64,000 nt of DNA from Candidatus Omnitrophota bacterium (GTDB taxonomy: Bacteria > Omnitrophota > Gorgyraeia > 2-01-FULL-45-10): the NCBI GenBank assembly GCA_030695905.1, contig JAUYOL010000015.1:8518-72517 (forward strand). The letters are read 5' to 3'. The translations under genes were made by a program, and so were the position numbers. Positions 11,250 to 48,237 of the stretch are shown here, piece by piece. Below the pieces are notes generated by a model. It was given only the letters and a program-made list of their open reading frames with translations. It had not been told where the DNA came from and searched no databases. How positions within the stretch are numbered: position 1 is the first letter of the stretch; each line of letters starts with the position of its first letter.

Positions 11250-11253
11250 TCAG

Positions 11254-12464: not shown

Positions 12465-12493
12465 TTGACGCGCCTTCTCTTTTGCAATACAAT
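12465..12493 (+). promoter_or_regulatory. Sigma70-like promoter: TTGACG, a 17-bp spacer, then TACAAT.
   Basis: A near-consensus -35 at 12465-12470 and -10 at 12488-12493. The predicted TSS is about 12500, inside the annotated TTG-start of the GNAT ORF. Confidence 0.4.
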
Positions 12494-13108
12494 GATCGTG
12501 TGCAAAAGATAACTGTAAGACGAGGGAAGCCCGAAGACGCCCACCATTTTTCCGAACTCGTTGCGTTATCAAGTCCCGCGCTTTTTTTAGTCCTCTTTGG
12601 CTCAAAAGTAAAAAGATTGATGGAAAAACTCTTTCCGCATAAAAGGCACTACTATAGCTTTGACAGGTCTTTCTTTATTGAGGTCGACGGAAATACGGCG
12701 GGTATGGCGCAGTTGCACAGATTCAGACCCAGAAGAAGAGAAAAGATAAACCTGACTTTTCTGCTTATGAAGTATATGAATTGGCGCCTGCCTTCGAGCG
12801 TAGCCCCACTTTTAATGTCAGAAAAGATCATCAGAGATTTTTCAGGCAGAGACTGTTATTTGAGTAATGTCGCGGTCTACCCCGAATATAGAAGCCTTGG
12901 CCTTGGTTCAAAACTATTAGGCGCCATCGAAGAAGAAGTAAAGAGCGCCGGTAAAAATAGAATAGTGCTTCATGCGGATGCTAAAAATCATGGCGCAATC
13001 AGGTTATACGAAAGGCTCGGATACAGGATAGAAGAGAAGTCCCCCACTCTTAAGATTAGAAATAAATATTTTGATTATCTTATTATAAAAAAGAATCTTG
13101 CTTCTTAA
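12482..13108 (+). CDS. GNAT-family N-acetyltransferase. The true start may be the GTG at 12500.
   Basis: ITVRRGKPEDAHHFSEL (GNAT N-terminus); acetyl-CoA binding motif A VAVYPEYRSLGLGSKLL; and ..RLYERLGY. Confidence 0.7.
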   Translation: MQYNDRVQKITVRRGKPEDAHHFSELVALSSPALFLVLFGSKVKRLMEKLFPHKRHYYSFDRSFFIEVDGNTAGMAQLHRFRPRRREKINLTFLLMKYMNWRLPSSVAPLLMSEKIIRDFSGRDCYLSNVAVYPEYRSLGLGSKLLGAIEEEVKSAGKNRIVLHADAKNHGAIRLYERLGYRIEEKSPTLKIRNKYFDYLIIKKNLAS

Positions 13109-14468
13109 CTCTTCCCAGGTAGTAATACCAAAAGTCCAATCCCCTGTAACACTCCGACGCGGATGTATCTATTAAGGTATCGCTATCTATGCCGAACTCG
13201 GAAAGCTTATACAGGTTATCATTCTTCAACAGTTTGTGTTTTAGCAGTATTGCCGAGCCTATAATATTCGCCGGCATCCCTTTACGCAAACCCTCCTTAT
13301 TATTGCCATTACATATAAGATGATACTCCAGATTTCCCGATAAGACGCTCAAAATTTGTATTGCTATGGATATGAATATGAGAATAACGGCAAAATATCG
13401 CGCCAGACATTTTTTGGAGATAAAAATATAAAGCGGAAATAACCAAAGAAATATTGTCGGCACGAGAAGCCGCGGCCCCCAGCACCATCCGCCGTACCAC
13501 ATATGCCACATGGATATCGCGATAAGATTCGATAGTATTATGGATACAAAGAATACCGCTTCCCTGCGATAGTCCTTAAAAATTTTTATATAACCTATCA
13601 CGCTTAATATAAGTATTGGATTATATATAAATATTCCTTTATCCAGATAGTACAGTAATTTCGGGATATTTGTCTTTATGCCGGATAGATAGAACATGCC
13701 CGCTTCAGCGCCGTAACCAAATTCGAATATATCATGAAATCTTATATAGTTTAAAGATAGGCTAAAGCAGATAGCGCCCAGGATAAACGATAAAAATATC
13801 AGGCCGTGGGCGGCAGCGCGTTTTATATTCTCCTTATTTATTAGCCATATATAAACAAGGAACGGCGGCGCATATATTAAGTTAATGGTTCCTATCAAGA
13901 TAAGGAAAGCGTATGACGTGCCCGCCGCCAACAAACTATTTTTTGTATTTTTCAGGGTAAGATATACTGAAAGTATCAGAAAAAAGCCTTGGGTTACTTC
14001 CGAGAAGGTCCATATGCTATAGCGCCACTGCATCGTTGCCAGGCCCAGCACAAAAGCCATTATTACCGCGGTCTTTAATGGGACATAGAATTTTTTATAT
14101 AGCATGCGGAAGAATATTGCCGCCGCGCCGGCGCCGAAGAAGATATTATAAAAAGATACCAGAAAATTTACTATGAACTCTTTTGGGGCCGCGCTTATAT
14201 GCGCGATAAGCTTTGAGGCAAGAATAAAAGGGATAAATATTACCGCAAGGCCTATTCCGTATTTTGAATAGTATTTCCCATCCCGGGATTCAAAGCAATA
14301 CCCTCCTGTGTGCTCATCTATGGCCAGAGAGCCTTTCTCAATAATGGATTCCGCGGTGAGAATAGAGAAATGGGTGTCGCTTATCTCTATGAATCCTTTT
14401 GCCGTGATAAGATATATCAGGCCGAGCAGGCAGAATATGAGGATAGCGCTTTTTGTTGTCTTATCCAT
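13083..14468 (-). CDS. Polytopic membrane glycosyltransferase-like protein (ArnT/PMT/GT39-like).
   Basis: About 12 TM helices and the motif WHMWYGGWCWGPRLLVP, which is reminiscent of GT-C family transferases. It is divergent from the GH3 gene. Confidence 0.45.
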   Translation of the reverse strand: MDKTTKSAILIFCLLGLIYLITAKGFIEISDTHFSILTAESIIEKGSLAIDEHTGGYCFESRDGKYYSKYGIGLAVIFIPFILASKLIAHISAAPKEFIVNFLVSFYNIFFGAGAAAIFFRMLYKKFYVPLKTAVIMAFVLGLATMQWRYSIWTFSEVTQGFFLILSVYLTLKNTKNSLLAAGTSYAFLILIGTINLIYAPPFLVYIWLINKENIKRAAAHGLIFLSFILGAICFSLSLNYIRFHDIFEFGYGAEAGMFYLSGIKTNIPKLLYYLDKGIFIYNPILILSVIGYIKIFKDYRREAVFFVSIILSNLIAISMWHMWYGGWCWGPRLLVPTIFLWLFPLYIFISKKCLARYFAVILIFISIAIQILSVLSGNLEYHLICNGNNKEGLRKGMPANIIGSAILLKHKLLKNDNLYKLSEFGIDSDTLIDTSASECYRGLDFWYYYLGRVKKQDSFL

Positions 14469-14511
14469 AGCGTATATTATATAATAATCACAATAAATAG
14501 AGGTTTAAAAA

Positions 14512-16167
14512 TTGCGCATAGCGTATCTTGCTTTAAAAATACTGGCGCCTAAAGCCAGGCATTTCGAGAATTCCACAAAAAAACCCATAGAGGTTCAGAA
14601 AAAACTGCTTTTCCAATATCTGCATCGTAATAAGAATACCGAATATGGAGTCAAATATCACTTTTCGCATGTGAAATCCATCGGGGATTACCGCATGCTC
14701 GTTCCAATGAGCGATTCCGAAACCATCTTTCCGTATGTAGAGAAGATTAAGAAAGGGACCAATAATATCCTCACGAAGGATAAAGTTGTATTTTTCGGGC
14801 TTACAAGCGGCACCACCGGAAAACCGAAATTCATTCCGGTGACAAATTTTTCCCGGAAGAAGAAAGCCGAAGTGATGGATCTCTGGGCGTATTATATATT
14901 GAAAGATCATCGCGATGCATTGGACGGGAAGGTGCTTGCCATAATAAATCCCGATGACGATGATGCGACGGATATAGGTATACCGGTGGGCGCCGAAAGC
15001 GGTCATGCGTATAAAAATATGCCGCGTATGATAAAAAAGTTTTACGCGGTGCCTTACAATGTGTTTATGATACAGGATTACGAGTCCAGGTATTACTGCA
15101 TAGCGAGGATAGCCCTGGAAAAGAACGTAACTACCATTGCCACGCTGAATCCAAGCACTATCGTTCTTCTTTGCCATAAGATAGAAAAATATAAAGACGA
15201 GCTTATCGAGGATATAGAGAAGGGGACTTTAAGTAAGAATGTAAAAGTGCCGCCTTACGCAAGAAACGCTTTTGAGCGCACTTTCAGGCCGAATAAAAAA
15301 AGAGCCGATGAATTAAAGAATATTCTAAAAGAAAAAAAAGAGTTGCTGCCGAAATATTTTTGGCCAAACCTTAAACTCATAGAGTGCTGGAAGGGCGGGA
15401 CTGTAAAATTATACCTAAGAGAATTGCCGCAGTATTTCGGCGGCGTTCCCATAAGAGATTTCGGCTGCCTTTCAACGGAAGCCCGCAGCTCGATACCTAT
15501 GAGCGACACGGGAGCCGGCGGGGTCCTCGCGATAAACACCAATTTTTATGAATTTATTCCAAAAGAAGATATTGGAAAGAGCGAAAAGCGTTTTCTTTTG
15601 TGCGATGAACTGGAGAAGGCTAAAGAATATTATCTTATAGTTACTACTCCGGGCGGATTATACAGGTATAATATAGATGATATAATTACCGTTACCGGAT
15701 TTTATAACAGGACGCCTGTCATAGAATTTGTGCAGAAAGGGTTAAACGCCGTTTCTATAATGGGAGAGAAGCTTTATGAGTCTCAAGTGAATGAGGCGGT
15801 AAACAGGGCTGCCGATAAACACAAGCTTCTTATAGCCTTTTTCTCCGCCTGCGCCCAGTGGAATCCGCCAAGATATATATTTCTTGTGGAGTTTGGAAGA
15901 AACGGCCAGAGTGTGAATAAACAGGCATTATTAAGATCCATAGAGGAAGAGCTTGGTAAGGAAAATTCCGAATATAAATATGTCCGCGATTCGCAGCTGT
16001 TAAAGCCTCCTGTGCTGAAAGTAGTCAAGGCGGGAGAGTTTGAGAAGTATCGCGTCAGGCGTGTTAGTGAAGGCGCCAACGATAGCCAATTTAAAGTAGC
16101 CGAATTGACGGCCAATGCAGATTTTGAGAAAAACTTCGCGGTGGAGGAAGAGATCTGCCTGGATTAG
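14512..16167 (+). CDS. GH3-family (auxin-responsive GH3-like) adenylate-forming acyl-acid amido synthetase, copy 1.
   Basis: LTSGTTGKPKFIPVT matches the GH3 SSGTTxGxxKxIP AMP-binding motif. It has YRYNIDDIITVTGF, is 551 aa long, and uses a TTG start that aligns with the paralog's N-terminus. Confidence 0.75.
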   Translation: MRIAYLALKILAPKARHFENSTKKPIEVQKKLLFQYLHRNKNTEYGVKYHFSHVKSIGDYRMLVPMSDSETIFPYVEKIKKGTNNILTKDKVVFFGLTSGTTGKPKFIPVTNFSRKKKAEVMDLWAYYILKDHRDALDGKVLAIINPDDDDATDIGIPVGAESGHAYKNMPRMIKKFYAVPYNVFMIQDYESRYYCIARIALEKNVTTIATLNPSTIVLLCHKIEKYKDELIEDIEKGTLSKNVKVPPYARNAFERTFRPNKKRADELKNILKEKKELLPKYFWPNLKLIECWKGGTVKLYLRELPQYFGGVPIRDFGCLSTEARSSIPMSDTGAGGVLAINTNFYEFIPKEDIGKSEKRFLLCDELEKAKEYYLIVTTPGGLYRYNIDDIITVTGFYNRTPVIEFVQKGLNAVSIMGEKLYESQVNEAVNRAADKHKLLIAFFSACAQWNPPRYIFLVEFGRNGQSVNKQALLRSIEEELGKENSEYKYVRDSQLLKPPVLKVVKAGEFEKYRVRRVSEGANDSQFKVAELTANADFEKNFAVEEEICLD

Positions 16168-16209
16168 CTTAGCGAAAAAGGTGTTTAAAATATCGAAAGG
16201 ATATAAGGC

Positions 16210-16533
16210 ATGGACTTTGTTTCGATGAAGACACAGATCAAGAATGCGGGATTGGATAATATTCGTACCGACAACGACGATTATCTGGAGGCAGTGATCA
16301 AAAGAGAGTCGATAGACAATATTATACAGGCGCTTGAGAGTGTATTTGGCAAGCCGGCATGGCCCTCAAAAGATAAGTTGTCCTCCCCGGTGCAAAAACT
16401 TGTTAATGATTACGGAGGCTTAAGGAAAGGGCAGACTTTATTTTCCATTAATGGCGACGGGGTATTGGTATTTGCCATGCTTTGGCCGTGGCAGGATGGT
16501 GAAAGAATTACATTGAAGATGGGCAAAGCCTGA
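16210..16533 (+). CDS. Hypothetical small protein (107 aa) within the GH3 cluster.
   Basis: A clean ORF with an RBS aaagga. No recognisable motif. Confidence 0.35.
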   Translation: MDFVSMKTQIKNAGLDNIRTDNDDYLEAVIKRESIDNIIQALESVFGKPAWPSKDKLSSPVQKLVNDYGGLRKGQTLFSINGDGVLVFAMLWPWQDGERITLKMGKA

Positions 16534-16555
16534 GATAGGCCGGGAGGGTAGAAAA

Positions 16556-17539
16556 ATGAAAAATCTCATAACGGGCGCTACGGGTTTTGTAGGAAGTCAT
16601 ATCGCGGAAAGGCTCATCAAGGAGGGCGAAGAGGTTATAACGCTGGTCAGAAAGACCAGCAAGACAGATTTTTTAAAGAACATAGGCGCAAAGTTCGCTT
16701 ACGGAGATATTAATGATGTAGATTCGATAAAAGACGCGATGAGAGGCATAGATATAGTCTATCACAGCGCTGCGCTCGCCGATGAATGGATATCGCCCAA
16801 GCAAGCCCGCCGCGTCAATGTTGATGGGACGAGAAATTTACTCAATTGCGCGCTGGAAGCGAAAGTAAAAAGATTTGTATTCATAAGCAGCCTCGCTGTT
16901 CTCGGGATGAGAGATCACCATGGAACAAACGCTGATGCTCCATATCATAAAACGGGCGACAGTTATATCGATACCAAGATAGATTCCGAACAGCTCGTTA
17001 TGGGTTACTACAAAAAATATGGTTTGCCGGTTACCGTGGTAAGGCCCGGGTTTGTATTCGGCCCGAGAGACAATAAGCTGATACCGCGTCTTTCCGACAG
17101 GCTCGGAAAAAAGCAGTTTATGTTTGTCGGCAGCGGCAAGAACAAGATAAATTCCGTTTATGTCGAAAACCTCACAGACGCGATAATACTTGCCGCCAGA
17201 AGCGACAAGGCGATAGGTCAGAAGTATAATGTTACCAATGACAGCGGCATGACGCTGGAAGACCTGGTATTCAAAATCGTTGATATCTGGAAGTTCGACA
17301 AGCCCAAAAAGCATATTCCCAAAGCCATGGCTTATCTGGTATGCCATGTACTTACCGCCATCGCGCGCCTCACAAAGGCCAAAGAGCCGCCTTATATTAC
17401 AAAGACGCGTATAAAATTTTTGTGTTTAAACCTTGATTTCGATATTGCGAAAACAAGAAATGACCTCGGCTATGTTCCGCGAGTTTCGATAGAAGATGGT
17501 TTAAGAAGAACCAAAGAATGGATGCAGAAGAAAGGATAG
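16556..17539 (+). CDS. NAD-dependent epimerase/dehydratase (extended SDR, 3-beta-HSD/dihydroflavonol-reductase-like).
   Basis: ITGATGFVGSHI Rossmann motif, a YxxxK region (YIDTK), 327 aa. Confidence 0.8.
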   Translation: MKNLITGATGFVGSHIAERLIKEGEEVITLVRKTSKTDFLKNIGAKFAYGDINDVDSIKDAMRGIDIVYHSAALADEWISPKQARRVNVDGTRNLLNCALEAKVKRFVFISSLAVLGMRDHHGTNADAPYHKTGDSYIDTKIDSEQLVMGYYKKYGLPVTVVRPGFVFGPRDNKLIPRLSDRLGKKQFMFVGSGKNKINSVYVENLTDAIILAARSDKAIGQKYNVTNDSGMTLEDLVFKIVDIWKFDKPKKHIPKAMAYLVCHVLTAIARLTKAKEPPYITKTRIKFLCLNLDFDIAKTRNDLGYVPRVSIEDGLRRTKEWMQKKG

Positions 17540-17548
17540 CGCCGCAAA

Positions 17549-18373
17549 TTGGATGTCAGGGTAGGACAATTTACATCTGAAGATAATTTAGGCCTATACT
17601 ATAATTACTGGCCGGTTCAGGATAATCGGGCCCCTGTCGCGGTATATCTTCACGGCCTGGAAAGCCATATGGGCTGGTTTTTTAATCTCGCCGAATCTTT
17701 GAATTCAAGAGGTATTAACGTATATGCTTTTGACAGGCGCGGCTCCGGTATTAACAAAGAAAGTTGTAAGAGCTTCTGTCCCAGATATATATTAAGCGAC
17801 GTAAAAACATTTCTGGACCTTGTGAAGCAGGACCATCCGGACAGCAAGATATTCCTGGTGGGCCTTTGCCTGGGCGGGAAGATAGCTGTAAGCTTCGCCT
17901 CTTTATATCAAAATTATGTCGATGGCCTGGTGCTGGTATCCCCGTCGCTTAAAAGTAAACTTAAATTTTCGCCTTTTGAAATATTGTCAATATTATTCAG
18001 GCCCAACAGCACGCTCAAAATACCCATCGAAGACAGGATGTTTACCTCAAACGAAAAATATCTTAAGCATATCAAAGTGGATCCTATGAGGCTTCACTAT
18101 ATTCCGGCGCAGCACCTTCTTGAGATCGCAAAGATGGACAGGTTTGTGAAGGCAGCTTTGCGCAATCTTCGGCTTCCCGTCCTTCTTATGCTGGCCGGTA
18201 TAGATGAAATAATAGATACTGGAAGCATAAAGAAGTGGTATGAAAAGCTGCCATCCCAAGATAAGACCATAAAGATATATGAGGACTTTTATCATCTATT
18301 GACCTTCGAGGAGAAGGCCGATGGGGTTATGGATGAAATTTCCGGATGGATATGGGGTAGGTCCAATGCCTGA
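17549..18373 (+). CDS. Alpha/beta hydrolase (lysophospholipase/monoacylglycerol-lipase-like) with an apparent Cys at the nucleophile elbow.
   Basis: HGLESHMGWF; elbow VGLCLGG (a G-x-C-x-G, where GxSxG is expected; Cys codon tgc at 17867-17869); and a C-terminal YEDFYHLL His region. Confidence 0.6.
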   Translation: MDVRVGQFTSEDNLGLYYNYWPVQDNRAPVAVYLHGLESHMGWFFNLAESLNSRGINVYAFDRRGSGINKESCKSFCPRYILSDVKTFLDLVKQDHPDSKIFLVGLCLGGKIAVSFASLYQNYVDGLVLVSPSLKSKLKFSPFEILSILFRPNSTLKIPIEDRMFTSNEKYLKHIKVDPMRLHYIPAQHLLEIAKMDRFVKAALRNLRLPVLLMLAGIDEIIDTGSIKKWYEKLPSQDKTIKIYEDFYHLLTFEEKADGVMDEISGWIWGRSNA

Positions 18374-19484
18374 AATATCAAAAATAGAGATCTTCAAGAC
18401 AAACTTGCCTTTTAAGCATTCCTTCAAACATTCACTTAAATCAAGAAACGACAGCGAGAGTATATTTGTAAAAGTTATACTGGATAACGGCATAACCGGT
18501 TTCGGGGAGAGTCTGCCCAGAAGTTATGTTACGGGCAATACGCAGGATTCTGTATTTAAAAATTTAAGTGATTCCGCCGGAAAGCTTATAGGAACCAGGC
18601 TTGATGATAACATAGAATCCATTAATTTTATAAAGAGCCTTGAGGGGCTGGAGGGCGAAGCGCGCTGCGCGGTAGAAATAGCGCTGCTCGATTCTCTTGG
18701 AAAAATTTGCTCTAAGCCGGTATCGGCATTTTTGGCAGATGTGGTAAACACGAAATTTGTCTATAGCATGATAATTCCTACCGTATCGGCGTTTAAAACA
18801 GGCCTTATATGCTTATTTGCCAAGGTCCAGGGGTATGAATTTATAAAGGTGAAAGTAGGGGCGGATACAGATGTACAGAGGGTGAAGCTCTGCAGGAAGA
18901 TATTGCCGAAGGCGGATATAAGAATTGACGCCAATGGCGTGTGGGATTCAGCAAAGACCGCGCTTGGGATGATTCAAAGATTGCGCCCCTTTAAAATATC
19001 GTGCATAGAGCAGCCTACGCCAAAAGACGATCTTGAAGCGATGCAGGAAGTGGCGGATTTTTGCGCCGAGCCGGTAATGGCGGATGAGTCTCTATGTACC
19101 AGGCAGGATGCCTTGAAGCTTGCCCAATCCAGAGTTTGCGATATGTTCAATGTGAGGCTCTCGAAATGCGGAGGAATATTCAGGTCATTGGATATTATGG
19201 ATATAGCCCGCAACCACGAGATGTCTTGTCAGATAGGCTGTCTTGTAGGCGAATCCGGCATTTTGTCGGCAGCCGGAAGGCACATCGCAAGTGTTGCCAA
19301 AAATATCGTTTATTTTGAGGGTTCCTATTCGAGATTTTTGCTTAAAGAAGATATTGTGGAAGAAGATTTGACACCTGCCAGGAGCGTCGGATATACTCTA
19401 AAAGGGGCCGGGTTGGGTGTGACTGTGAAAGAAGATATCTTGAGGAAGTATTCAAAAGAAAGCCTTTTGATAGGCCAGAAATGA
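18366..19484 (+). CDS. Enolase-superfamily enzyme (MR/MLE subgroup), a dipeptide epimerase / N-acyl-amino-acid racemase / OSBS-like protein.
   Basis: KVKVG catalytic Lys pair; metal ligands IDANGVWD, IEQP and ADES. The track ORF starts at 18321, but the likely start is MPEISK at 18366, after the hydrolase stop. Confidence 0.75.
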   Translation: MPEISKIEIFKTNLPFKHSFKHSLKSRNDSESIFVKVILDNGITGFGESLPRSYVTGNTQDSVFKNLSDSAGKLIGTRLDDNIESINFIKSLEGLEGEARCAVEIALLDSLGKICSKPVSAFLADVVNTKFVYSMIIPTVSAFKTGLICLFAKVQGYEFIKVKVGADTDVQRVKLCRKILPKADIRIDANGVWDSAKTALGMIQRLRPFKISCIEQPTPKDDLEAMQEVADFCAEPVMADESLCTRQDALKLAQSRVCDMFNVRLSKCGGIFRSLDIMDIARNHEMSCQIGCLVGESGILSAAGRHIASVAKNIVYFEGSYSRFLLKEDIVEEDLTPARSVGYTLKGAGLGVTVKEDILRKYSKESLLIGQK

Positions 19485-21139
19485 ATGCGCTAAGCCTTCT
19501 TGTAAAGATGCGTGCTTTTGCGGCGGATAAATTCGATAAAAAGACGAAAAACCCGCTATCCGCGCAGAAGGAGTTTTTGCTAAATATGCTGTATAGCAAC
19601 AGAGATACGGTTTTTGGCAAAGAACATAAGTTTTCCGAAATTAAAACCATAGACGATTTCCAAAAGAATGTTCCCGTCCGCAATTATGAGGGCTTAAGGC
19701 CGTACATAAAGAAGATGATGGAGGGCTCTGACGGCATTCTTGTAAAGGATAAGGTAATATTTTACGGCATCACCTCCGGCACCACCAGTATCCCTAAATT
19801 TATCCCTGTCACGAAAAAATCCCGCAGACAAAAATCCGCGGTTATGAATTTATGGCTTTATCACTTGCTTAAGAAACATCCCGAAGCGCTTGACGGTAAA
19901 TCATTTATTGTCTCAAGCCCCGCGGTGGAAGGCTACGCCGAATCGGGCGTGCCGTATGGCTCCGAATCCGGGGACGCTTACAGGCACATGCCGTCTTTTA
20001 TCAGCAAGCATTATGCGCTTCCCTACGAGGTTTTCTGCATTAAGGACTATGAAGCGCGATACTATACGATGTTAAGGATAGGCATAGAGGCGGACGTTAC
20101 AAATGTAGGCACTATGAATCCTCTTACTATACTTGTCCTTTGCCAGAAGATAGAAAAATATGTCAAAGAAATTATCGAAGATATAAGAAATGGTACTCTA
20201 AATAGCGCGTTAAACATCGACACCGATATACGTAAAGCGCTGGAGAAAAAATTGAGGCCCAACATTTCAAGGGCCGCCCAATTAGAGAAGTTGTTTATTG
20301 AGAAGGGGGCCCTCGTTCCTAAGGACTTTTGGCCTAATATGGCCCTTATCGAATGCTGGACAGGCGGCACTGTAGGGTTGTACTTAAAAGAGGTGATAAA
20401 ATATTTTTCTGAAGATATAAGCGTGCGCGACTTCGGATTTTTGGCGACCGAAGCGCGTTGTTCCGTGCCTGTATCCGATAATGGCCCGAGCGGCATATTG
20501 ACCATAACATCCAATTTTTATGAGTTTATGCCCGAAGAGGATATCGAGAAGGAAAGCCCGCGGTATTTGACAGTCGAAAAATTGGAGAAGGGCAAAAGAT
20601 ACTACATTATATTTACGACGACAGGAGGGCTGTACCGCTATAATATAGACGATATAGTAAAAGTTATAGGATCTTACAATGCCACGCCTGTTATAGAATT
20701 TATACAGAAAGGCAAGAACGTCTCCTCCGCCACAGGCGAAAAACTGTACGAAAGCCAAATCATAAGCGCGATACACAAGGCGAAAGAGATTACCGGTGTC
20801 AATGTGGAATTCTTTTGCTGCTGCCTGGAATGCCAGATACCTCCTAAATATTCTTTTCTGATAGAGTTTACATCTGATCCCGGCCATTCACAGAAGAAGA
20901 ACTTTTTAAACGTTGTCGAAGACAACCTCGGCAAGATAAACATAGAGTACAAGTCGAAACGCCTTTCACAGCGGCTGGGTGACCCCAACCTGAAAGTTTT
21001 GGAAAAAGGTTCCTTTGAAAAGTTCAGAAGAGCGCGTTTGTCGGCATTGCAGCATGACAGCCAGTTTAAAGCAACTCACTTAAGATGCGACTTTAAGATC
21101 CCGCCGGAATTTAAAATCATCGAGGAAATAGCACTTTAA
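19481..21139 (+). CDS. GH3-family acyl-acid amido synthetase, copy 2 (paralog of 14512-16167).
   Basis: ITSGTTSIPKFIPVT, YRYNIDDIVKVIGSY. It is collinear with copy 1 at roughly 40-55% identity over the aligned blocks. Confidence 0.75.
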   Translation: MNALSLLVKMRAFAADKFDKKTKNPLSAQKEFLLNMLYSNRDTVFGKEHKFSEIKTIDDFQKNVPVRNYEGLRPYIKKMMEGSDGILVKDKVIFYGITSGTTSIPKFIPVTKKSRRQKSAVMNLWLYHLLKKHPEALDGKSFIVSSPAVEGYAESGVPYGSESGDAYRHMPSFISKHYALPYEVFCIKDYEARYYTMLRIGIEADVTNVGTMNPLTILVLCQKIEKYVKEIIEDIRNGTLNSALNIDTDIRKALEKKLRPNISRAAQLEKLFIEKGALVPKDFWPNMALIECWTGGTVGLYLKEVIKYFSEDISVRDFGFLATEARCSVPVSDNGPSGILTITSNFYEFMPEEDIEKESPRYLTVEKLEKGKRYYIIFTTTGGLYRYNIDDIVKVIGSYNATPVIEFIQKGKNVSSATGEKLYESQIISAIHKAKEITGVNVEFFCCCLECQIPPKYSFLIEFTSDPGHSQKKNFLNVVEDNLGKINIEYKSKRLSQRLGDPNLKVLEKGSFEKFRRARLSALQHDSQFKATHLRCDFKIPPEFKIIEEIAL

Positions 21140-22560
21140 TGGAAGATCATATAATTACGGATAAAGGTAAGCAGAATTGGCTTATAACTATCGTTTCTTT
21201 GACCGTATTTATGTTCACTCTGGATTACAGCATGCTGAACATATCGCTTCCTGTCATAGCCAATTTTTATGGGGCCAATATCGGTATTGTTTCCCGCCTG
21301 CCTCTTGCATATCTATTGGTAGTTACGAGCACGGTTTTACTATTCGGCAGGCTTGGCGATATCGCAAGCTTCAAAAAGATATTTGTCTGGGGCCTTGGGG
21401 TATTTATAGCGGGAACATTTATTTGCGGCCTCGCGCCTACATTAAATACACTTTTAGCATTTAGGATATTTCAGTGTCTCGGTGAAGCTATGTTCAGCCC
21501 TATGGGCATAGCCATCGTGACGACATTTCTTCCGGATAGCGCCAAGGGCAAAGCGCTCGGGTTAATGGCTACCGCCCAAGGTTTAGGTTTCTGTCTCGGG
21601 CCCATACTGGGTGGATTTATAAATGACCACATCGGCTGGCATAATATATTCTTTGTAAATATCCCCGTAGGAATATTGGCTCTTATGGCCGCGCTCAAAG
21701 TCATACCTTCCAATCAGCCTATGCCGGAATCGAAACGCGTAGATCTTCCCGGAGCGGTACTGATTTTTATTTCGTTATCAACTTTAATTTTCGCGCTGAA
21801 TTCTATCGCGAAATTGGGATTGAAAAATAATATCATAATATCGTGCTTTGTGGTTTCCGCGGCGGCAATGGGAATTTTTATAATGACTGAAAAGAGGACC
21901 TCAAGCCCTATACTCGATCTGTCGCTTTTTCGCAATCCGGACTTTACATTCGCCACAATTTCCGCGCTATGTACCGTATTCGTTTATATGGGGCTGATAT
22001 TTCTGCTGCCGTTTTATTTTAGCATGGTCAGGGGTATGGATATCGTGCACTCGGGACTTTTGCTTATGATACCGGCGATAATGGTGGTTATCTTTGCCCC
22101 TATAGCCGGCAAGATATCGGATATGATTGGTTCCAGGCTGATCTGCTCGGCCGGCATAGGCCTGACAACTTTGGCATTTTTGATATTTTCTATCCTTACG
22201 CCCAAGTCGCCTGTTATATGCGTGATTCCCTCGCTGATACTGGCCGGAGTCGCGATAGGATTTTTTCTCCCCGCGAATAATAAGCTTGTTATGGTCCATG
22301 CGCCTTCAGACAAACAGGGCATGGCATCGGCCGTGTATAAGATACTTAACAGCATAGGCGGCGTATTTGGCATAGCCATACTGCCGCTCGTCCTTATGAG
22401 CAAAATTTATAAGACAGCGGCCCTTGAACATGTGAATATAGCCGCGGCCAGACATTCACCCGAAATATTGATAGCCGGATTTAACGCGGCGTTCCAATTT
22501 GCCATGTTTGTATGCGTGGCGGGCCTGGCAGCAACGATTATGGCAAAGGACAAAAAATAA
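21139..22560 (+). CDS. MFS transporter (14-TM drug:H+ antiporter DHA2-like exporter).
   Basis: GRLGDIASFKKIF (MFS motif A) and about 14 TM helices. Its start overlaps the stop of GH3 copy 2 (TAATGG). Confidence 0.8.
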   Translation: MEDHIITDKGKQNWLITIVSLTVFMFTLDYSMLNISLPVIANFYGANIGIVSRLPLAYLLVVTSTVLLFGRLGDIASFKKIFVWGLGVFIAGTFICGLAPTLNTLLAFRIFQCLGEAMFSPMGIAIVTTFLPDSAKGKALGLMATAQGLGFCLGPILGGFINDHIGWHNIFFVNIPVGILALMAALKVIPSNQPMPESKRVDLPGAVLIFISLSTLIFALNSIAKLGLKNNIIISCFVVSAAAMGIFIMTEKRTSSPILDLSLFRNPDFTFATISALCTVFVYMGLIFLLPFYFSMVRGMDIVHSGLLLMIPAIMVVIFAPIAGKISDMIGSRLICSAGIGLTTLAFLIFSILTPKSPVICVIPSLILAGVAIGFFLPANNKLVMVHAPSDKQGMASAVYKILNSIGGVFGIAILPLVLMSKIYKTAALEHVNIAAARHSPEILIAGFNAAFQFAMFVCVAGLAATIMAKDKK

Positions 22561-22563
22561 GTG

Positions 22564-22638
22564 GAGACGCTTTCCAAGTCAATCGGGAAGCTGCCCCCGC
22601 AATAAGACACTTTCCCGATGCGCTTGGAAAGCGTCTCC
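22564..22638 (+). promoter_or_regulatory. Extended imperfect hairpin (a 16-bp perfect outer stem plus a nested 8-bp inner stem) between the MFS gene and the radical-SAM gene.
   Basis: GGAGACGCTTTCCAAG (22564-22579) pairs with CTTGGAAAGCGTCTCC (22623-22638). Inside, ATCGGGAA (22592-22599) pairs with TTCCCGAT (22612-22619). There is no U-tract. The hairpin ends 8 nt before the ATG at 22647. Confidence 0.4.
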
Positions 22639-22646
22639 AGGGTATT

Positions 22647-23882
22647 ATGAAAAGAAGCAGAGAAGATAATTTGCTGGAGCCAGCCGGCATGAAGGCCGGC
22701 CGGTTTTTTAAACTTTCAGCCGGCGACCTTATAAAATTGCCCCCGGGAAGCGATATATTTAAGCTTCCGTCCAGGGAGGCGGTAGTTTACGACCCCGTTA
22801 GCTTAAAGTTTGTATCCCAGAAAGGCCGTATAGCGATAGCGGCGTTCCTGCCTCCGGGATACACCGTCACGTATAACAGCGCATATAAGGAAATAGGCAA
22901 ACCCAGGAAGCTGCCCCTTTTCGCTTATGCCGCATGCGCGTTGCGTCACGGGGATATCTACACCGCCGCAGTAAGGGTGGATGTGTCGCCATGCCATGAT
23001 TCAAGATTTATGGATATGCGGCTTGTCGAAACCAACGCGCGCAAGTTTTTGAAGATCTTTCCTAAAAACAGCCTTATAAGGCATCTTAAAAATTGCGCTT
23101 TATGCTATGGCTGCCCTAACGCTAAAAATTTCTTCCTAAATAAATACGAGGCCCCGCTGCCGACATCTCCTTCGTGTAACGCTCAATGCGCCGGATGTAT
23201 ATCGTATCAACCGGACGGACAGATACGGCAGACCCAGCCCAGAATAAAATTTATTCCATCCCCGGAAGAGATTGCCCAGATAGCGTTATTTCATATAAAG
23301 AATACCAAAAATCCTATTGTAAGTTTTGGCCAGGGCTGCGAAGGAGAGCCGCTTCTTTGCGCCGGGATAATAGAGAAGGCGATAAAGCTGATAAGAAAGG
23401 CCACGTCAAAAGGCGTTATTAATATCAATACGAACGCGAGTTCTCCGGAGGCGGTTGCCAGGCTCTTTGACGCCGGCCTCGATTCTATTCGCGTTAGCCT
23501 TAATAGTGTCCGGCAGAAATTTTATACAAGTTACTATAATCCTATGGGGTATTCTTTTGGGGATGTCGCCAAATCCATAGATATAGCCAAGAAGAAAAAA
23601 GGTTTTGTTTCGATAAATTATCTTACGGTGCCCGGTTTTACCGATTCAAAAGACGAATTTACCGCGTTTAAAAAGTTTTTGGTAATATATGGTATCGACA
23701 TGATACAATGGCGCAATCTTAATTATGACCCATTGAGGTATTTCAAAGAGATGAATATAAAACCGAATGCGTCGGATATGCTTGGCATAAAAGAGATAAT
23801 AGATTTATTGAAGAAAGAATTTCCAAAGGTCAGAATGGGATATTTCAATACGTATGAAGGTGTTAATAGTAGACGGGTATAA
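22647..23882 (+). CDS. Radical SAM domain protein with an additional N-terminal Cys cluster.
   Basis: CNAQCAGC (CxxxCxxC) followed by GQGCEGEPLL (a SAM-binding GGE-like motif). An extra CALCYGC (CxxCxxC) lies upstream. The start is inferred at MKRSRE, after the hairpin. The track ORF begins at 22512, inside the MFS gene. Confidence 0.6.
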   Translation: MKRSREDNLLEPAGMKAGRFFKLSAGDLIKLPPGSDIFKLPSREAVVYDPVSLKFVSQKGRIAIAAFLPPGYTVTYNSAYKEIGKPRKLPLFAYAACALRHGDIYTAAVRVDVSPCHDSRFMDMRLVETNARKFLKIFPKNSLIRHLKNCALCYGCPNAKNFFLNKYEAPLPTSPSCNAQCAGCISYQPDGQIRQTQPRIKFIPSPEEIAQIALFHIKNTKNPIVSFGQGCEGEPLLCAGIIEKAIKLIRKATSKGVININTNASSPEAVARLFDAGLDSIRVSLNSVRQKFYTSYYNPMGYSFGDVAKSIDIAKKKKGFVSINYLTVPGFTDSKDEFTAFKKFLVIYGIDMIQWRNLNYDPLRYFKEMNIKPNASDMLGIKEIIDLLKKEFPKVRMGYFNTYEGVNSRRV

Positions 23883-25983: not shown

Positions 25984-26016
25984 TAAGAAAAATATAGGAG
26001 TTTTGGCATAATTCAC

Positions 26017-26044
26017 TTGTTCTCGCCAGTAATTCCGTTATAAT
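26017..26044 (+). promoter_or_regulatory. Sigma70-like promoter: TTGTTC, a 16-bp spacer, then TATAAT.
   Basis: A perfect -10 at 26039-26044. The ATG of ETF-QO is at 26057, so the leader would be only about 6 nt, with no SD. Confidence 0.4.
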
Positions 26045-26056
26045 AGGTACCTATAT

Positions 26057-27766: not shown

Positions 27767-27787
27767 AAATTATAGGCATCAGTATAA

Positions 27788-32425: not shown

Positions 32426-32427
32426 CT

Positions 32428-37677: not shown

Positions 37678-37685
37678 AGGCTTAA

Positions 37686-41519: not shown

Positions 41520-41522
41520 AAT

Positions 41523-43567: not shown

Positions 43568-43582
43568 TTCGGAGAAATATAT

Positions 43583-47056: not shown

Positions 47057-47064
47057 AAACTAAA

Positions 47065-48231: not shown

Positions 48232-48237
48232 CTTAGG

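What the first reader, a model, noticed from the sequence alone, without database searches (positions are those of the whole stretch)
14512..22560. Candidate biosynthetic cluster for an acyl-amino-acid conjugate: two GH3 amido synthetases, an enolase-superfamily racemase, an SDR, a hydrolase and an MFS exporter
Two paralogous GH3-family adenylating acyl-acid amido synthetases (14512-16167 and 19481-21139) bracket four genes: a small unknown protein, an NAD-dependent epimerase/dehydratase, an alpha/beta hydrolase, and an MR/MLE-type enolase-superfamily enzyme of the dipeptide-epimerase / N-acyl-amino-acid racemase kind. A DHA2-type MFS exporter follows. All are co-directional and tightly packed with overlapping start and stop codons. 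In plants, GH3 enzymes ligate amino acids to carboxylic-acid hormones. Bacterial homologs are essentially uncharacterised. Two synthetases plus a racemase plus an efflux pump is a coherent logic for making and exporting an N-acyl amino acid or amide conjugate (possibly D-configured). I do not recognise this arrangement as a described pathway.
Basis: partly seen in the sequence, partly recalled or inferred. Interest (0 to 1): 0.75.

Follow-up and report, generated by a model that had tools for sequence, protein, structure and literature searches.

The report
Conserved GH3 ligase–enolase-type enzyme operon
A real seven-gene operon in an uncultured Omnitrophota bacterium is built on a gene module (an ATP-dependent amide-forming ligase, an unusual enolase-type enzyme, a cysteine hydrolase and a reductase) that I also found in distant bacteria and could not find described in the literature; it probably makes an exported fatty-acid–amino-acid conjugate, but not by the racemase route first proposed.

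Summary
Window 14512-22560 encodes GH3-A, an orphan 107-aa protein, an extended SDR, an α/β-hydrolase, an enolase-superfamily (MLE-subgroup) enzyme, GH3-B and a DHA2 MFS exporter. All are co-directional, with 8-, 4- and 1-nt overlaps. The organism is a Candidatus Omnitrophota MAG.

- The whole cluster recurs at 62-87% identity in at least six other contigs.
- A core MLE→GH3 pair recurs in distant lineages (34-73% GC). It often comes with the hydrolase and the SDR, and the hydrolase is fused to the MLE in some proteins.
- The "racemase" lacks one of the two catalytic lysines. The β6 Lys is an invariant Arg, in 116/116 orthologs and in 135/151 diverse representatives.
- The "hydrolase" has a Cys nucleophile in all 26 copies placed upstream of the MLE. 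Sister modules without GH3 use Ser.
- This Arg-type MLE subfamily sits beside lipid-handling genes: MGL-like hydrolases, LpxL-like acyltransferases, FadL, MMPL, patatin and LplT/Aas.

The closest characterised system is OlsH/OlsI (GH3-dependent ornithine lipid synthesis, 2025), but membership scores fail badly.

Best reading: biosynthesis and export of a tailored acyl-amide (lipo-amino-acid type). Its structure is unknown, and D-configuration is unsupported.

The parts
14456..14485 (+). Promoter-like site (TTGTCT-18-TATAAT) inside the 5' end of the divergent membrane-protein gene. An AGAGG ribosome-binding site and the TTG start of GH3-A follow.
   Evidence: Consensus scan gives 10 of 12 matches. 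Sequence read. This is a consensus match only; function was not shown.
14512..16167 (+). GH3-A, an acyl-acid amido synthetase (551 aa, TTG start). Motif I TSGTTGKPK (aa 98-106), motif II FGCLSTE (317-323), motif III GGLYRYNIDD (381-390).
   Evidence: Pfam GH3 N/M/C domains all far above cut-off. Aligned to JAR1 end to end. Motifs located. It is 100% identical to an Omnitrophota MAG protein. In the NJ tree it nests within the Omnitrophota 'solo' GH3 clade.
16210..16533 (+). Orphan 107-aa cytosolic α+β protein, found only in this cluster type.
16556..17539 (+). Extended SDR of the 3β-HSD/OleD/HpnA-like kind (327 aa). GATGFVG (aa 7-13), SSLA (111-114), YIDTK (137-141). Basic residues after β2 suggest NADP(H).
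   Evidence: Pfam Epimerase 3e-43 and 3Beta_HSD 5.8e-38. Best NCBIfam hits are OleD at 185-186 bits and HpnA at 184 bits, all below cut-off. PDB hits. It is the most conserved protein of the cluster, at 84-87% identity. Cofactor preference is my reading of the sequence, not a test.
17549..18373 (+). α/β-hydrolase of the monoglyceride-lipase-like Hydrolase_4 family, with a Cys-Asp-His triad: GLC107LGG, GID219EI, YH249L.
   Evidence: Pfam Hydrolase_4 7.8e-45. Aligned to human MGLL, whose Ser122 corresponds to Cys here. Cys is conserved in 7/7 orthologs and in all 26 copies placed upstream of an MLE.
18366..19484 (+). Enolase-superfamily enzyme of the MLE subgroup, 'Arg-type' (372 aa from ATG 18366). 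K161-x-K163, D188, E215 and D240 are retained. R264 (codon 19155-19157) replaces the β6 catalytic Lys. K267 is second-shell. E318-G319 sit at the β8 site.
   Evidence: Pfam. Alignments to 3q45, 1jpm/1tkk, 3jva, 3r0k and 2p88, which all have Lys at that position. Residues invariant in 116 orthologs. 135/151 diverse representatives have Arg. Start codon read.
19481..21139 (+). GH3-B, an acyl-acid amido synthetase (552 aa). Its start is coupled to the MLE stop by an ATGA overlap. Motifs: TSGTTSIPK, FGFLATE, GGLYRYNIDD.
   Evidence: Pfam. Motifs located. It groups with the GH3 of locus L009, which also lies directly downstream of an MLE. A GH3 lies directly downstream of the MLE in 23 of 64 informative metagenome loci.
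21139..22560 (+). DHA2-family MFS efflux permease (473 aa). Its start overlaps the GH3-B stop by 1 nt.
   Evidence: Pfam MFS_1 7.8e-54. NCBIfam TIGR00711 efflux_EmrB 248.2 bits against a cut-off of 230.2. Conserved in L003, L010 and L012.
22683..22709 (+). Terminator-like hairpin (GCCGGC-ATGAAG-GCCGGC followed by a T-run), 123 nt after the MFS stop. A possible operon end.
   Evidence: Scan, sequence read. Uncertain, because it lies inside the 5' part of the next (radical SAM) ORF, whose conserved portion begins near M46 (22647).
12482..13108 (+). GNAT acetyltransferase, a conserved upstream neighbour. Whether it belongs to the pathway is uncertain.
   Evidence: Pfam Acetyltransf_1 2.7e-17. Orthologs at 58-61% identity lie upstream of GH3-A in L003 (directly adjacent), L010 and L012.
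13083..14468 (-). Divergently transcribed polytopic membrane protein, with a weak match to a putative glycosyltransferase family. Membership is uncertain.
   Evidence: NCBIfam LA_3751/LA_3752 family, 37 bits against a cut-off of 200. An analogous minus-strand membrane protein occupies the same position in L010. PMT_2 (GT-C) genes lie next to related modules in L009, L006 and L039.

Best explanation
The operon 14512-22560 most likely makes and exports a tailored acyl-amide of the lipo-amino-acid type.

Shown:
- Both GH3 enzymes have intact adenylate-forming motifs.
- The Arg-type MLE keeps its Mg2+ ligands and the β2 KxK.
- The α/β-hydrolase has a Cys-Asp-His triad.
- The last gene passes the curated DHA2 efflux model.
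- MLE→GH3 is a translationally coupled pair that recurs in distant bacteria.

Inferred mechanism:
1. A GH3 enzyme adenylates a carboxylic acid, probably a fatty or hydroxy-fatty acid as in OlsH, and couples it to an amino acid.
2. That gives a conjugate with a free α-carboxylate.
3. The Arg-type MLE binds such a carboxylate on Mg2+ and removes its α-proton with the single retained Lys.
4. With one base only, a β-elimination or addition reaction (dehydratase, lyase or cycloisomerase type) is more likely than inversion of configuration.
5. The Cys α/β-hydrolase moves or removes an ester-linked acyl group through a thioester intermediate.
6. The NADP(H)-type SDR interconverts a keto and a hydroxy group.
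7. GH3-B, coupled to the MLE, activates the resulting carboxylate for a second amide, or possibly a lactone.
8. The DHA2 pump exports the product.

GH3-A, the 107-aa orphan protein and the pump are a lineage-specific addition to the older core of SDR, Cys-hydrolase, MLE(Arg) and GH3. The order of steps and the identities of the acid and the amine are unknown.
For: Family assignments and motifs.

The only bacterial GH3 enzyme that I found characterised in the literature ligates fatty acids to an amino acid and pairs with an α/β-hydrolase. That is OlsH/OlsI (PMC12493201). A GH3 plus an MFS pump also occurs in the legionellol lipid cluster (PMC5640695).

Conservation of the whole cluster: L003, L010, L012, L021 and L023/24.

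The core triad or tetrad with different accessories:
- L006/7, L013, L014 and L009.
- High-GC loci L015, L028, L037, L041, L042 and L083.

Fusions: hydrolase–MLE in P0307, P0325 and P0326; haem-oxygenase-like oxidase–MLE in P0380 and P0381.

A GH3 lies directly downstream of the MLE in 23 of 64 informative metagenome loci. The MLE-linked GH3s sit at the base of the NJ tree.

The nucleophile correlates with context. Cys occurs in all 26 hydrolases placed upstream of the MLE. Ser occurs in 20 of 21 hydrolases in modules without GH3.

Lipid context of the Arg-type MLE subfamily:
- MGL-like hydrolases.
- LpxL-like acyltransferase plus a FadL-type channel.
- MMPL and patatin.
- An LplT/Aas fusion.
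- An Mpo1-like gene, with LpxI and LpxB flanking.

The nearest solved relatives of the MLE act on amide-linked C-terminal amino acids, namely dipeptide epimerases. 2p88 tops the profile search; from memory it is the B. cereus N-succinyl-Arg/Lys racemase BC0371, whose activity is described in PMC2948282.

A second, independent two-GH3 architecture exists in L032/33.
Against: - No product, substrate or activity was observed. Everything about chemistry is inferred from family membership and neighbourhood.
- The GH3 proteins score only 105-121 bits on the OlsH model (cut-off 620). They are about as far from OlsH as from plant JAR1. A fatty-acid substrate is therefore analogy, not homology-based transfer.
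- The Arg-type MLE also occurs without GH3: 41 of 64 informative loci, plus L008 and L017. Its reaction does not require a GH3 product.
- Accessory genes in other lineages do not obviously fit a lipid story. These include a RidA-domain protein, a haem-oxygenase-like oxidase, a nitroreductase, a UbiE-like methyltransferase and a ferredoxin.
- DHA2 pumps are generic.
- The operon's 3' boundary is uncertain.
Confidence: 0.45

Rival explanations
1. The enolase-type enzyme is an N-acyl-amino-acid or dipeptide racemase, and the product is an N-acyl-D-amino-acid conjugate made by two ligations around an epimerisation.
For: - The closest solved relatives are dipeptide epimerases at 137-141 bits. 2p88, which from memory is the N-succinyl-Arg/Lys racemase BC0371, tops the profile search.
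- KxK and the three metal ligands are invariant.
- The β8 residue aligned to AEE D321 is Glu, as in 2p88. AEE D321 and D323 bind the dipeptide ammonium (bioRxiv 10.1101/2022.05.01.490185).
- GH3 products carry the free α-carboxylate that such enzymes need.
Against: - The β6 catalytic Lys (AEE K268, NSAR K263) is Arg in 116/116 orthologs and in 135/151 diverse representatives.
- Every solved relative that I aligned has Lys there.
- The 1,1-proton transfer of this subgroup uses both lysines (bioRxiv 10.1101/2022.03.03.481873).
- All NCBIfam racemase and epimerase models score far below cut-off.
Confidence: 0.12
2. An OlsH/OlsI-like membrane aminolipid pathway. A GH3 N-acylates an amino acid with a 3-hydroxy fatty acid. 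The α/β-hydrolase adds the second, ester-linked fatty acid. The lipid stays in the cell's own envelope, and the MFS acts as a flippase rather than a secretion pump.
For: - The OlsH/OlsI precedent of a GH3 plus an α/β-hydrolase in one operon (PMC12493201).
- An MGL-like hydrolase with a Cys nucleophile suits acyl transfer.
- An OleD-like SDR could supply the 3-hydroxy group.
- Lipid A genes, GT-C glycosyltransferases and PAP2 lie nearby in several loci.
- In modules without a hydrolase, an LpxL-like acyltransferase accompanies the MLE.
Against: - OlsH scores 105/121 bits against a cut-off of 620. OlsI scores 26.5 against 385.
- OlsHI needs neither an enolase-type enzyme, nor an SDR, nor a second GH3.
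- The transporter matches drug and metabolite efflux models, not known lipid flippases.
- The full seven-gene form is restricted to a sub-lineage of Omnitrophota. That is unusual for a core membrane lipid.
Confidence: 0.2
3. A catabolic or remodelling module rather than biosynthesis. The hydrolase opens an ester or lactone, and the MLE-type enzyme isomerises or dehydrates the released acid. This mirrors the pairs muconate cycloisomerase + enol-lactonase or dienelactone hydrolase, and MenH + MenC. GH3 then re-activates the acid for salvage.
For: - The MLE(Arg) + Hydrolase_4 pair exists on its own in 21 loci with no other recurrent partner.
- The top NCBIfam hit of the MLE is the muconate/chloromuconate cycloisomerase subfamily, at 147.6 bits.
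- The hydrolase has weak DLH and PcaD hits, and dienelactone hydrolase is a Cys enzyme (the latter from my own knowledge).
- A FadL-type uptake channel accompanies one context class.
Against: - ATP-consuming amide ligases and an efflux pump at the operon end argue for synthesis and export.
- No ring-cleavage or β-oxidation genes are nearby.
- The Cys nucleophile correlates specifically with the presence of GH3.
Confidence: 0.1
4. A non-canonical menaquinone head-group route. The hydrolase, the MLE and GH3 would stand in for MenH, MenC (o-succinylbenzoate synthase) and MenE, in the same gene order.
For: - The gene order hydrolase→MLE→adenylating enzyme mirrors MenH→MenC→MenE (established pathway knowledge).
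- The MLE hits menC_lowGC_arch at 127.9 bits, and the hydrolase hits MenH at 33.7 bits.
- The window carries MenA above cut-off (TIGR00751, 119.9 against 102.15), a polyprenyl synthase, complex I and ETF-QO.
- A UbiE-like methyltransferase lies in the L006 and L014 versions.
Against: - No MenF, MenD or MenB is anywhere in the window or in the related loci.
- All Men model scores are below cut-off.
- The nucleophile is Cys, where MenH uses Ser (MenH triad from my own knowledge; for Cys).
- The β6 Lys is missing.
- An exporter, a second GH3 and lipid-type neighbours in other lineages do not fit.
Confidence: 0.04

Closest known systems
OlsH/OlsI ornithine-lipid pathway of Singulisphaera acidiphila (Rivera-Nájera et al., J Biol Chem 2025; PMC12493201)
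   Same: A bacterial GH3 enzyme forms an amide in an ATP-dependent reaction. It sits in one operon with an α/β-fold enzyme that handles an ester-linked acyl group. The three GH3 nucleotide motifs are present. The genomic context is lipid-related.
   Different: - Scores are far below the curated OlsH and OlsI cut-offs (105/121 against 620; 26.5 against 385).
- There is no OlsG methyltransferase.
- Here there are two GH3 enzymes, an obligatory enolase-superfamily partner, an SDR, an orphan protein and an efflux pump.
- The α/β-hydrolase is MGL-like with a Cys nucleophile.
Dipeptide epimerases and N-succinyl-amino-acid racemases of the MLE subgroup (B. subtilis YkfB 1jpm/1tkk, E. faecalis 3jva, C. 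hutchinsonii 3q45, B. cereus 2p88)
   Same: The same fold and subgroup. KxK on β2 and the Asp/Glu/Asp Mg2+ ligands are conserved, as is the second-shell Lys three residues after the β6 catalytic position. Their substrates are amide-linked amino acids with a free α-carboxylate, which is the kind of molecule a GH3 produces.
   Different: - The β6 catalytic Lys is an invariant Arg.
- The D-x-D ammonium-binding site of the dipeptide epimerases reads E-G-S/G.
- No curated model is passed.
- No solved structure that I aligned has the Arg.
Plant GH3 acyl-acid amido synthetases (JAR1, GH3.5/3.6/3.8/3.12)
   Same: Full-length alignment at 1e-29 to 1e-37. All three Pfam domains are present. Motifs I and III are nearly identical.
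   Different: Low identity, a one-residue insertion in motif II (FG-x-L-S/A-T-E), bacterial operon context, and unknown acid and amine substrates.
Legionellol cluster of Legionella pneumophila (lpg2225-2234; PMC5640695)
   Same: A GH3-family gene and an MFS efflux pump lie in one lipid-like biosynthetic cluster. The GH3 was proposed to attach an amino acid to an acyl chain.
   Different: That cluster builds its chain with ketosynthases, an ACP and acyl-CoA ligases, and it has no enolase-type enzyme. The role of its GH3 was proposed, not demonstrated.
Monoglyceride lipases (human MGLL, M. tuberculosis Rv0183) and Cys-nucleophile α/β enzymes (dienelactone hydrolase, PHA synthase)
   Same: Hydrolase_4 fold with Asp and His in place. 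Weak DLH and PhaC hits lie around the nucleophile elbow.
   Different: The MGLs use Ser, whereas here it is Cys in every copy placed upstream of an MLE. The protein is not a member of the DLH or PhaC families by score.

Membership tests
GH3 acyl-acid amido synthetase (Pfam PF03321 + PF23571 + PF23572) | All three domain models above the gathering score | tested here: met
   GH3-A scores 269.3/78.2/72.4 bits and GH3-B 256.3/75.8/67.3 bits, against cut-offs of 23.6.
GH3 acyl-acid amido synthetase | Nucleotide-binding motifs I (SSGTSxGxxK), II (YGSSE) and III (GLYRYRLGD), as listed for AtGH3.11 in PMC12493201 | tested here: met
   Motif I is TSGTTGKPK / TSGTTSIPK. Motif II is FGCLSTE / FGFLATE, with a one-residue insertion and the Glu kept. 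Motif III is GGLYRYNIDD. All are conserved in 35/35 related GH3 proteins.
GH3 acyl-acid amido synthetase | ATP-dependent adenylation of a carboxylic acid and transfer to an amine | not testable with these tools
   Needs an enzyme assay.
OlsH lyso-ornithine-lipid synthetase (NCBIfam NF052613, equivalog) | Score at or above the curated cut-off of 620 bits | tested here: not met
   104.7 bits for GH3-A and 121.3 bits for GH3-B, and only partial alignments.
OlsI ornithine-lipid O-acyltransferase (NCBIfam NF052614) | Score at or above 385 bits | tested here: not met
   26.5 bits, covering only the nucleophile-elbow region, residues 77-133.
[quoted passage not shown] | MR_MLE_N + MR_MLE_C domains, KxK at the end of β2, and Asp/Glu/Asp metal ligands | tested here: met
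   Pfam 29.9 and 157.5 bits. K161, K163, D188, E215 and D240 are invariant in 116 orthologs (372-aa numbering).
Dipeptide epimerase / N-succinyl(acyl)-amino-acid racemase | [quoted passage not shown] | tested here: not met
   The aligned residue is Arg (N-V-R-L-S-K-C-G-G), in 116/116 orthologs and 135/151 representatives. The solved relatives that I aligned all have Lys. The role of the two lysines is described in bioRxiv 10.1101/2022.03.03.481873.
Dipeptide epimerase | D-x-D at the end of β8 that binds the α-ammonium group of the dipeptide (AEE D321 and D323) | tested here: not met
   The site reads E318-G319-S320. Glu replaces the first Asp, and the second Asp is absent. The function of D321/D323 is from bioRxiv 10.1101/2022.05.01.490185.
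Dipeptide epimerase, NSAR, OSBS and muconate cycloisomerase (NCBIfam models) | Curated cut-offs | tested here: not met
   mucon_cyclo 147.6 against 334.95. menC_lowGC_arch 127.9 against 200.65. DgcA 121.8 against 400. Ala-Glu epimerase 115.1 against 500.
DHA2 family MFS efflux permease (TIGR00711) | Score at or above 230.2 bits | tested here: met
   248.2 bits over residues 17-433.
Monoglyceride-lipase-like serine hydrolase (Pfam Hydrolase_4) | Family model passed and a Ser-Asp-His triad | tested here: not met
   The model is passed at 153.5 bits, and Asp and His are aligned. The nucleophile is Cys107 (G-L-C-L-G-G), where MGLL has Ser122.
Extended short-chain dehydrogenase/reductase | GxxGxxG dinucleotide motif and a Ser…YxxxK catalytic set | tested here: met
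   GATGFVG (7-13), SSLA (111-114) and YIDTK (137-141). Pfam Epimerase 148.4 bits. The OleD and HpnA equivalog cut-offs are not met.

The most novel reading that the evidence does not exclude
MLE(Arg)→GH3, with a Cys α/β-hydrolase and an SDR, is an undescribed pathway found in several distant bacterial lineages. In it an enolase-superfamily enzyme has swapped one catalytic Lys for Arg. It performs a one-base elimination, addition or lactone-type step on the α-carbon of an acyl-amino-acid or hydroxy-acid carboxylate. A GH3 ligase then activates that carboxylate. The result would be a new class of exported lipo-amino-acid, lipo-dipeptide or lactone molecules. In the host-dependent nanobacteria of Omnitrophota, the seven-gene version would make a secreted signal, surfactant or antagonist.
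Probability: 0.25. Interest if true: 0.8.

Novelty: new variant of a known kind. Interest (0 to 1): 0.62.

Why it matters
- Bacterial GH3 ligases are abundant. A BLASTp survey reported more than 7,500 hits (PMC12493201), yet that paper's OlsH is the only biochemically characterised one I found.
- This locus shows that one whole branch of them is tied to an enolase-superfamily partner. That partner's active site (β6 Lys→Arg) matches no characterised or solved member that I could find.
- The same branch is tied to a monoglyceride-lipase-like enzyme that has switched its nucleophile from Ser to Cys exactly where GH3 is present.
- This gives enzymologists a defined subfamily to assign: 629 representative clusters at E<1e-30 among homologs of this enzyme, of which 135 of the best 151 carry the Arg.
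- It gives a testable four-enzyme module for new N-acyl amino acid or aminolipid chemistry.
- It gives a candidate secreted metabolite in Omnitrophota, an uncultured phylum; my literature searches turned up nothing on its small-molecule biology.

Tried and rejected
- The genome-contig scan with the single MLE protein returned only 3 loci, because the patterns were too specific. I replaced it with a metagenome scan using a 42-sequence alignment.
- The AFDB Foldseek library was unavailable.
- The menaquinone analogy (MenH/MenC/MenE) was considered because MenA, complex I and a UbiE-like methyltransferase are nearby. I ranked it low: there is no MenD, MenF or MenB, scores are below cut-off, and the catalytic residues are wrong.
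- The OleB/C/D analogy (SDR most similar to OleD, plus an adenylating enzyme and an α/β-hydrolase) was dropped. There is no OleA thiolase, and scores are about 185 against 580.
- The window's nitroreductase (27788-28342) is not the ortholog of the nitroreductase inside the L006, L013 and L014 modules. Identity is only 25-27%.
- The 141-aa gene after the 'solo' GH3 is not detectably related to the 107-aa orphan (no hit).
- Rfam and tRNA scans of the window found nothing, so there is no riboswitch clue to a ligand.
- Two key dipeptide-epimerase papers (PMC3306705, PMC2714228) are not held. I took the D321/D323 role from a preprint instead.
- No paper in the library combines GH3 with an enolase-superfamily partner.

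Full report
**1. What is there**

The + strand of window 14512-22560 carries seven ORFs.

| Gene | Coordinates | Family evidence |
|---|---|---|
| GH3-A | 14512-16167 | Pfam GH3 N/M/C: 5.5e-80, 5.2e-22, 6.6e-20 |
| Orphan 107-aa ORF | 16210-16533 | no family |
| Extended SDR | 16556-17539 | Epimerase 3e-43 |
| α/β-hydrolase | 17549-18373 | Hydrolase_4 7.8e-45 |
| Enolase-superfamily enzyme | 18366-19484 | MR_MLE_C 5.2e-46 |
| GH3-B | 19481-21139 | GH3 N/M/C: 4.9e-76, 2.9e-21, 2.5e-18 |
| MFS permease | 21139-22560 | passes the curated DHA2/EmrB model, 248.2 against 230.2 bits |

- GH3-A and GH3-B are 49% identical.
- Reading the junctions shows an 8-nt overlap between the hydrolase stop and the enolase-type start. 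The start is ATG 18366, not 18321, because orthologs are 364-370 aa.
- An ATGA overlap joins the MLE to GH3-B, and a 1-nt overlap joins GH3-B to the MFS.
- A promoter-like site (TTGTCT-18-TATAAT, 14456-14485) precedes an AGAGG ribosome-binding site and the TTG start of GH3-A.
- A GC-rich hairpin with a T-run lies at 22683-22709. It falls inside the 5' part of the next ORF, so the 3' boundary is not settled.
- GH3-A is 100% identical to a protein of a Candidatus Omnitrophota MAG.

**2. Is the cluster conserved?**

Yes, at three levels.

(a) *The whole arrangement.* The pattern is GNAT … GH3-A, orphan, SDR, hydrolase, MLE, GH3-B, DHA2 … radical SAM, NYN, MFS_3.
- It recurs at 62-87% amino-acid identity in L003, L010 and L012. 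The complete core also occurs in L021 and L023/24, and fragments in L011, L020 and L022.
- The orphan protein has only 58 homologs among 5.8 billion proteins, all about 107 aa. Those on long contigs share contig lengths with GH3-A or MLE orthologs.

(b) *A shorter core in other Omnitrophota.* The core is hydrolase–MLE–GH3, usually preceded by the SDR, with different accessories.
- L006/7 and L014: UbiE-like methyltransferase, SDR, nitroreductase, hydrolase, MLE, GH3, ferredoxin.
- L013: LeuA-like gene, SDR, nitroreductase, Mpo1-like gene, hydrolase, MLE, GH3, flanked by LpxI and LpxB.
- L009: polyprenyl-phosphate glycosyltransferase, PMT_2, hydrolase, MLE, GH3.

(c) *Outside this lineage, in contigs of 34-73% GC.* An MLE is immediately followed by a GH3.
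- The hydrolase is often upstream (L028, L037, L041, L042, L083, L086) or fused to the MLE (P0307/L015, P0325).
- An SDR is often nearby.

A metagenome scan seeded with the MLE motif returned 80 loci. Of the 64 with enough downstream sequence:

| Context directly downstream of the MLE | Loci |
|---|---|
| GH3 | 23 |
| Hydrolase_4 gene, no GH3 | 21 |
| Neither | 20 |

Many Omnitrophota also carry a single 'solo' GH3, about 61% identical to GH3-A, next to pseudopilin genes. In NJ trees the MLE-linked GH3s are basal. GH3-B groups with the L009 GH3. GH3-A nests inside the solo clade, which itself emerges from the L006/L013-type linked clade. So the seven-gene operon is an old MLE→GH3 module to which a second, diverged GH3, the orphan protein and a pump were added. 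A second, independent two-GH3 layout exists in L032/33: GH3, Cys-hydrolase, SDR, a 746-aa unknown, MLE, GH3.

**3. The enzymes in detail**

*GH3.* Both copies align end to end with JAR1 and other plant GH3 structures (1e-29 to 1e-37). They keep motif I (TSGTTxxPK), motif II (FG-x-L-S/A-T-E) and motif III (GGLYRYNIDD). These are conserved in 35/35 related proteins (motif definitions from PMC12493201). The adenylation machinery looks intact. Nothing in the sequences tells me the acid or the amine.

*Enolase-type enzyme.* The nearest solved relatives are dipeptide epimerases: 3q45, 1jpm/1tkk and 3jva. With a family profile the top hit is 2p88, which from memory is the B. cereus N-succinyl-Arg/Lys racemase BC0371, whose activity is described in PMC2948282.
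- KxK (K161, K163) and the metal ligands D188, E215 and D240 are invariant in 116 orthologs.
- The residue aligned without gaps to the second catalytic base (AEE K268, in N-I-K-L-M-K-A-G-G) is Arg. The local sequence is N-V-R-L-S-K-C-G-G.
- The Lys that follows aligns with the second-shell K271.
- Arg is found in 116/116 orthologs and in 135 of 151 representatives clustered at 50% identity.
- All the solved relatives I could align have Lys.
- At the β8 site, AEE uses D321 and D323 to hold the dipeptide ammonium. This family has an invariant E-G followed by S or G. 2p88 shows the same Glu.
- No curated NCBIfam model is passed.

My inference is that the enzyme can still form a Mg2+-stabilised enediolate using the β2 Lys. 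Because it lacks the second base, a one-base elimination, addition or cycloisomerisation is more likely than inversion. This is inference, not a test.

*α/β-hydrolase.* It is closest to monoglyceride lipases (human MGLL 9e-22, M. tuberculosis MGL). Asp and His are in place, but the nucleophile is Cys (G-L-C-L-G-G against G-H-S-M-G-G).
- Cys is present in all 26 hydrolases that lie upstream of an MLE, which is the class linked to GH3.
- In the GH3-less modules the hydrolase lies downstream of the MLE, and 20 of 21 have Ser (G-I-S-W-G-G).
- One fused hydrolase–MLE protein, P0326, has Ser. Its context is unknown.
- A Cys nucleophile implies a thioester acyl-enzyme. From general knowledge this is typical of acyl-transferring α/β enzymes such as PHA synthase and of dienelactone hydrolase.

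*SDR.* It is an extended SDR with an intact GxxGxxG and Ser/Tyr/Lys set. It is most similar to OleD (2-alkyl-3-oxoalkanoate reductase) and HpnA, but far below their cut-offs. It is the most conserved protein of the cluster, at 84-87% identity.

*Orphan protein.* The model is confident (pLDDT 89.8), but there is no convincing structural relative.

**4. What the neighbourhoods say**

The Arg-type MLE subfamily is large: 629 representative clusters at E<1e-30. It appears in three recurrent settings, each next to an enzyme that makes or breaks acyl esters.
- (i) Cys-hydrolase + GH3 ± SDR.
- (ii) Ser-hydrolase alone.
- (iii) An LpxL-type lipid acyltransferase upstream (9 loci) and a FadL/TodX outer-membrane fatty-acid channel opposite (10 loci).

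GH3-linked loci also carry other lipid-handling genes:
- MMPL lipid exporters and a patatin phospholipase.
- An LplT/Aas lysophospholipid transporter–acyltransferase–ligase fusion.
- An Mpo1-like gene and lipid A genes.

Where the hydrolase is missing, the gene in front of the MLE is one of two things. It can be a haem-oxygenase-like diiron enzyme, separate in L043 and fused in P0380/P0381. Or it can be a 380-aa protein with a C-terminal RidA domain, in L058, L079 and L094. The lipid flavour is consistent but circumstantial. The RidA, oxidase, nitroreductase and methyltransferase partners are not explained by it.

**5. Most likely mechanism**

The one characterised bacterial GH3 I found, OlsH, ligates fatty acids to ornithine and works with the α/β-hydrolase OlsI. 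A GH3 with an MFS pump in the legionellol lipid cluster was proposed to attach a modified ornithine residue. Combining these precedents with the data above, I propose that the operon makes an acyl–amino-acid conjugate. The conjugate is tailored at a keto/hydroxy group by the SDR, at an ester-linked acyl group by the Cys-hydrolase, and at the α-carbon of its free carboxylate by the MLE. GH3-B then extends or closes it, and the DHA2 pump exports it. Confidence is 0.45 for this general statement and much lower for any specific structure.

**6. Rivals**

- An OlsHI-like membrane aminolipid (0.20) is plausible. It does not explain the MLE, the second GH3 or an efflux-type pump, and the OlsH and OlsI scores fail.
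- A catabolic ester or lactone module (0.10) fits the stand-alone MLE + hydrolase pairs, but not the ATP-dependent ligases and the exporter.
- A MenH/MenC/MenE-like quinone route (0.04) is suggested by the gene order and by MenA, complex I and ETF-QO in the window. It lacks MenD, MenF and MenB and fails on residues and scores.
- Chance juxtaposition is excluded by the fusions and by conservation across distant lineages.

**7. Novelty**

Full-text searches found no description of a GH3 together with an enolase-superfamily partner, and nothing on GH3 enzymes or lipid biosynthesis in Omnitrophota. I rate it a new variant of a known kind. The known kind is GH3-dependent acyl-amide or aminolipid synthesis. 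The variant has two unusual catalytic substitutions (Lys→Arg and Ser→Cys) that track the module.

**8. Limits**

- Trees are neighbour-joining on BLOSUM distances.
- Gene calls in the fetched loci are my own ORF heuristics combined with HMMs built here.
- The metagenome loci carry no taxonomy.

Noticed in passing
window 4291-10434 (+): A 2047-aa protein. Its C-terminal third is a GH94 supersandwich plus catalytic domain (glycan phosphorylase / cyclic-glucan-synthase type). The N-terminal ~1300 aa have no Pfam match.
   Followed up: no
window 10425-12444 (+); L012 1418-2284: Two further α/β-hydrolases (Abhydrolase_1/Hydrolase_4 and DUF900) lie just upstream of the GNAT. The first has a 63%-identical ortholog in the same position in L012. 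The conserved neighbourhood may therefore extend upstream.
   Followed up: partly
window 13083-14468 (-); L010 1776-3098 (-); L009 7163-9159; L006 20091+; L039 4765-6360: Polytopic membrane proteins of GT-C / PMT_2 / Agl23-like type keep turning up beside GH3–MLE or MLE–hydrolase modules. In L009 one is paired with a polyprenyl-phosphate glycosyltransferase. This hints at a link to envelope glycolipid modification.
   Followed up: partly
window 22512-25450 (+); L003, L010, L012: A trio of radical SAM, NYN/YacP and MFS_3 genes is conserved downstream of the operon in all full-length clusters. The MFS_3 weakly resembles the LplT part of LplT/Aas fusions. L016 has such a fusion directly upstream of its oxidase–MLE–GH3 genes and a radical SAM gene downstream.
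   Followed up: partly
window 16556-17539: The SDR is much more conserved (84-87% identity) than its operon neighbours (62-72%) across L003, L010 and L012. I have no explanation.
   Followed up: no
window 40596-42506 (+): A UbiA-family gene passes the MenA equivalog cut-off (119.9 against 102.15 bits) and is followed by a polyprenyl synthase. This points to menaquinone use in this Omnitrophota MAG. No head-group (men or mqn) genes are in the window.
   Followed up: partly
window 211-2312 (+) and 29520-38640 (-): Two sets of complex-I-type genes. One is a fused 30-kDa/49-kDa subunit plus a 20-kDa subunit at the window start. The other is a longer nuo-like operon on the minus strand, with three antiporter-like subunits.
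   Followed up: no
window 25444-28342 (+): PAP2 lipid phosphatase, ETF-quinone oxidoreductase and a nitroreductase. The nitroreductase is only 25-27% identical to the one embedded in the L006, L013 and L014 modules, so it is not its ortholog.
   Followed up: yes
window 42511-50232 (+): Haem biosynthesis genes of the siroheme-dependent type: a CysG-like gene, HemA, HemC, a methylase–HemD fusion, two radical SAM enzymes (one with a SPASM domain) and a NirDL-like protein.
   Followed up: no
window 50284-63267 (+): Several multihaem c-type cytochromes (one fused to a cytochrome b561-like domain), a cytochrome b, ResB and a class-III aminotransferase. Together they form a respiratory island.
   Followed up: no
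L039-L098 (21 loci) and L036-L092 (20 loci): The Arg-type MLE also forms a two-gene module with a Ser-nucleophile Hydrolase_4 enzyme placed downstream. It forms another module with an LpxL-like acyltransferase plus a FadL/TodX channel. Neither contains a GH3.
   Followed up: partly
L032/L033 (70% GC): An independent two-GH3 architecture: GH3, Cys-hydrolase, SDR, a 746-aa protein with no Pfam match, MLE, GH3.
   Followed up: partly
L058 7433-8575, L079 1557-2696, L094 1729-2871: A ~380-aa protein with a C-terminal RidA (enamine/imine deaminase) domain and an unassigned N-terminal 270 aa lies upstream of the MLE–GH3 pair. It is directly adjacent in L079 and L094, and one gene removed in L058.
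   Followed up: no
L001 10001-11662, L004 10001-11683: A 'solo' GH3 (61% identical to GH3-A) sits in a conserved housekeeping context beside pseudopilin-like genes (N_methyl, DUF4900), TilS and FtsH in other Omnitrophota.
   Followed up: partly
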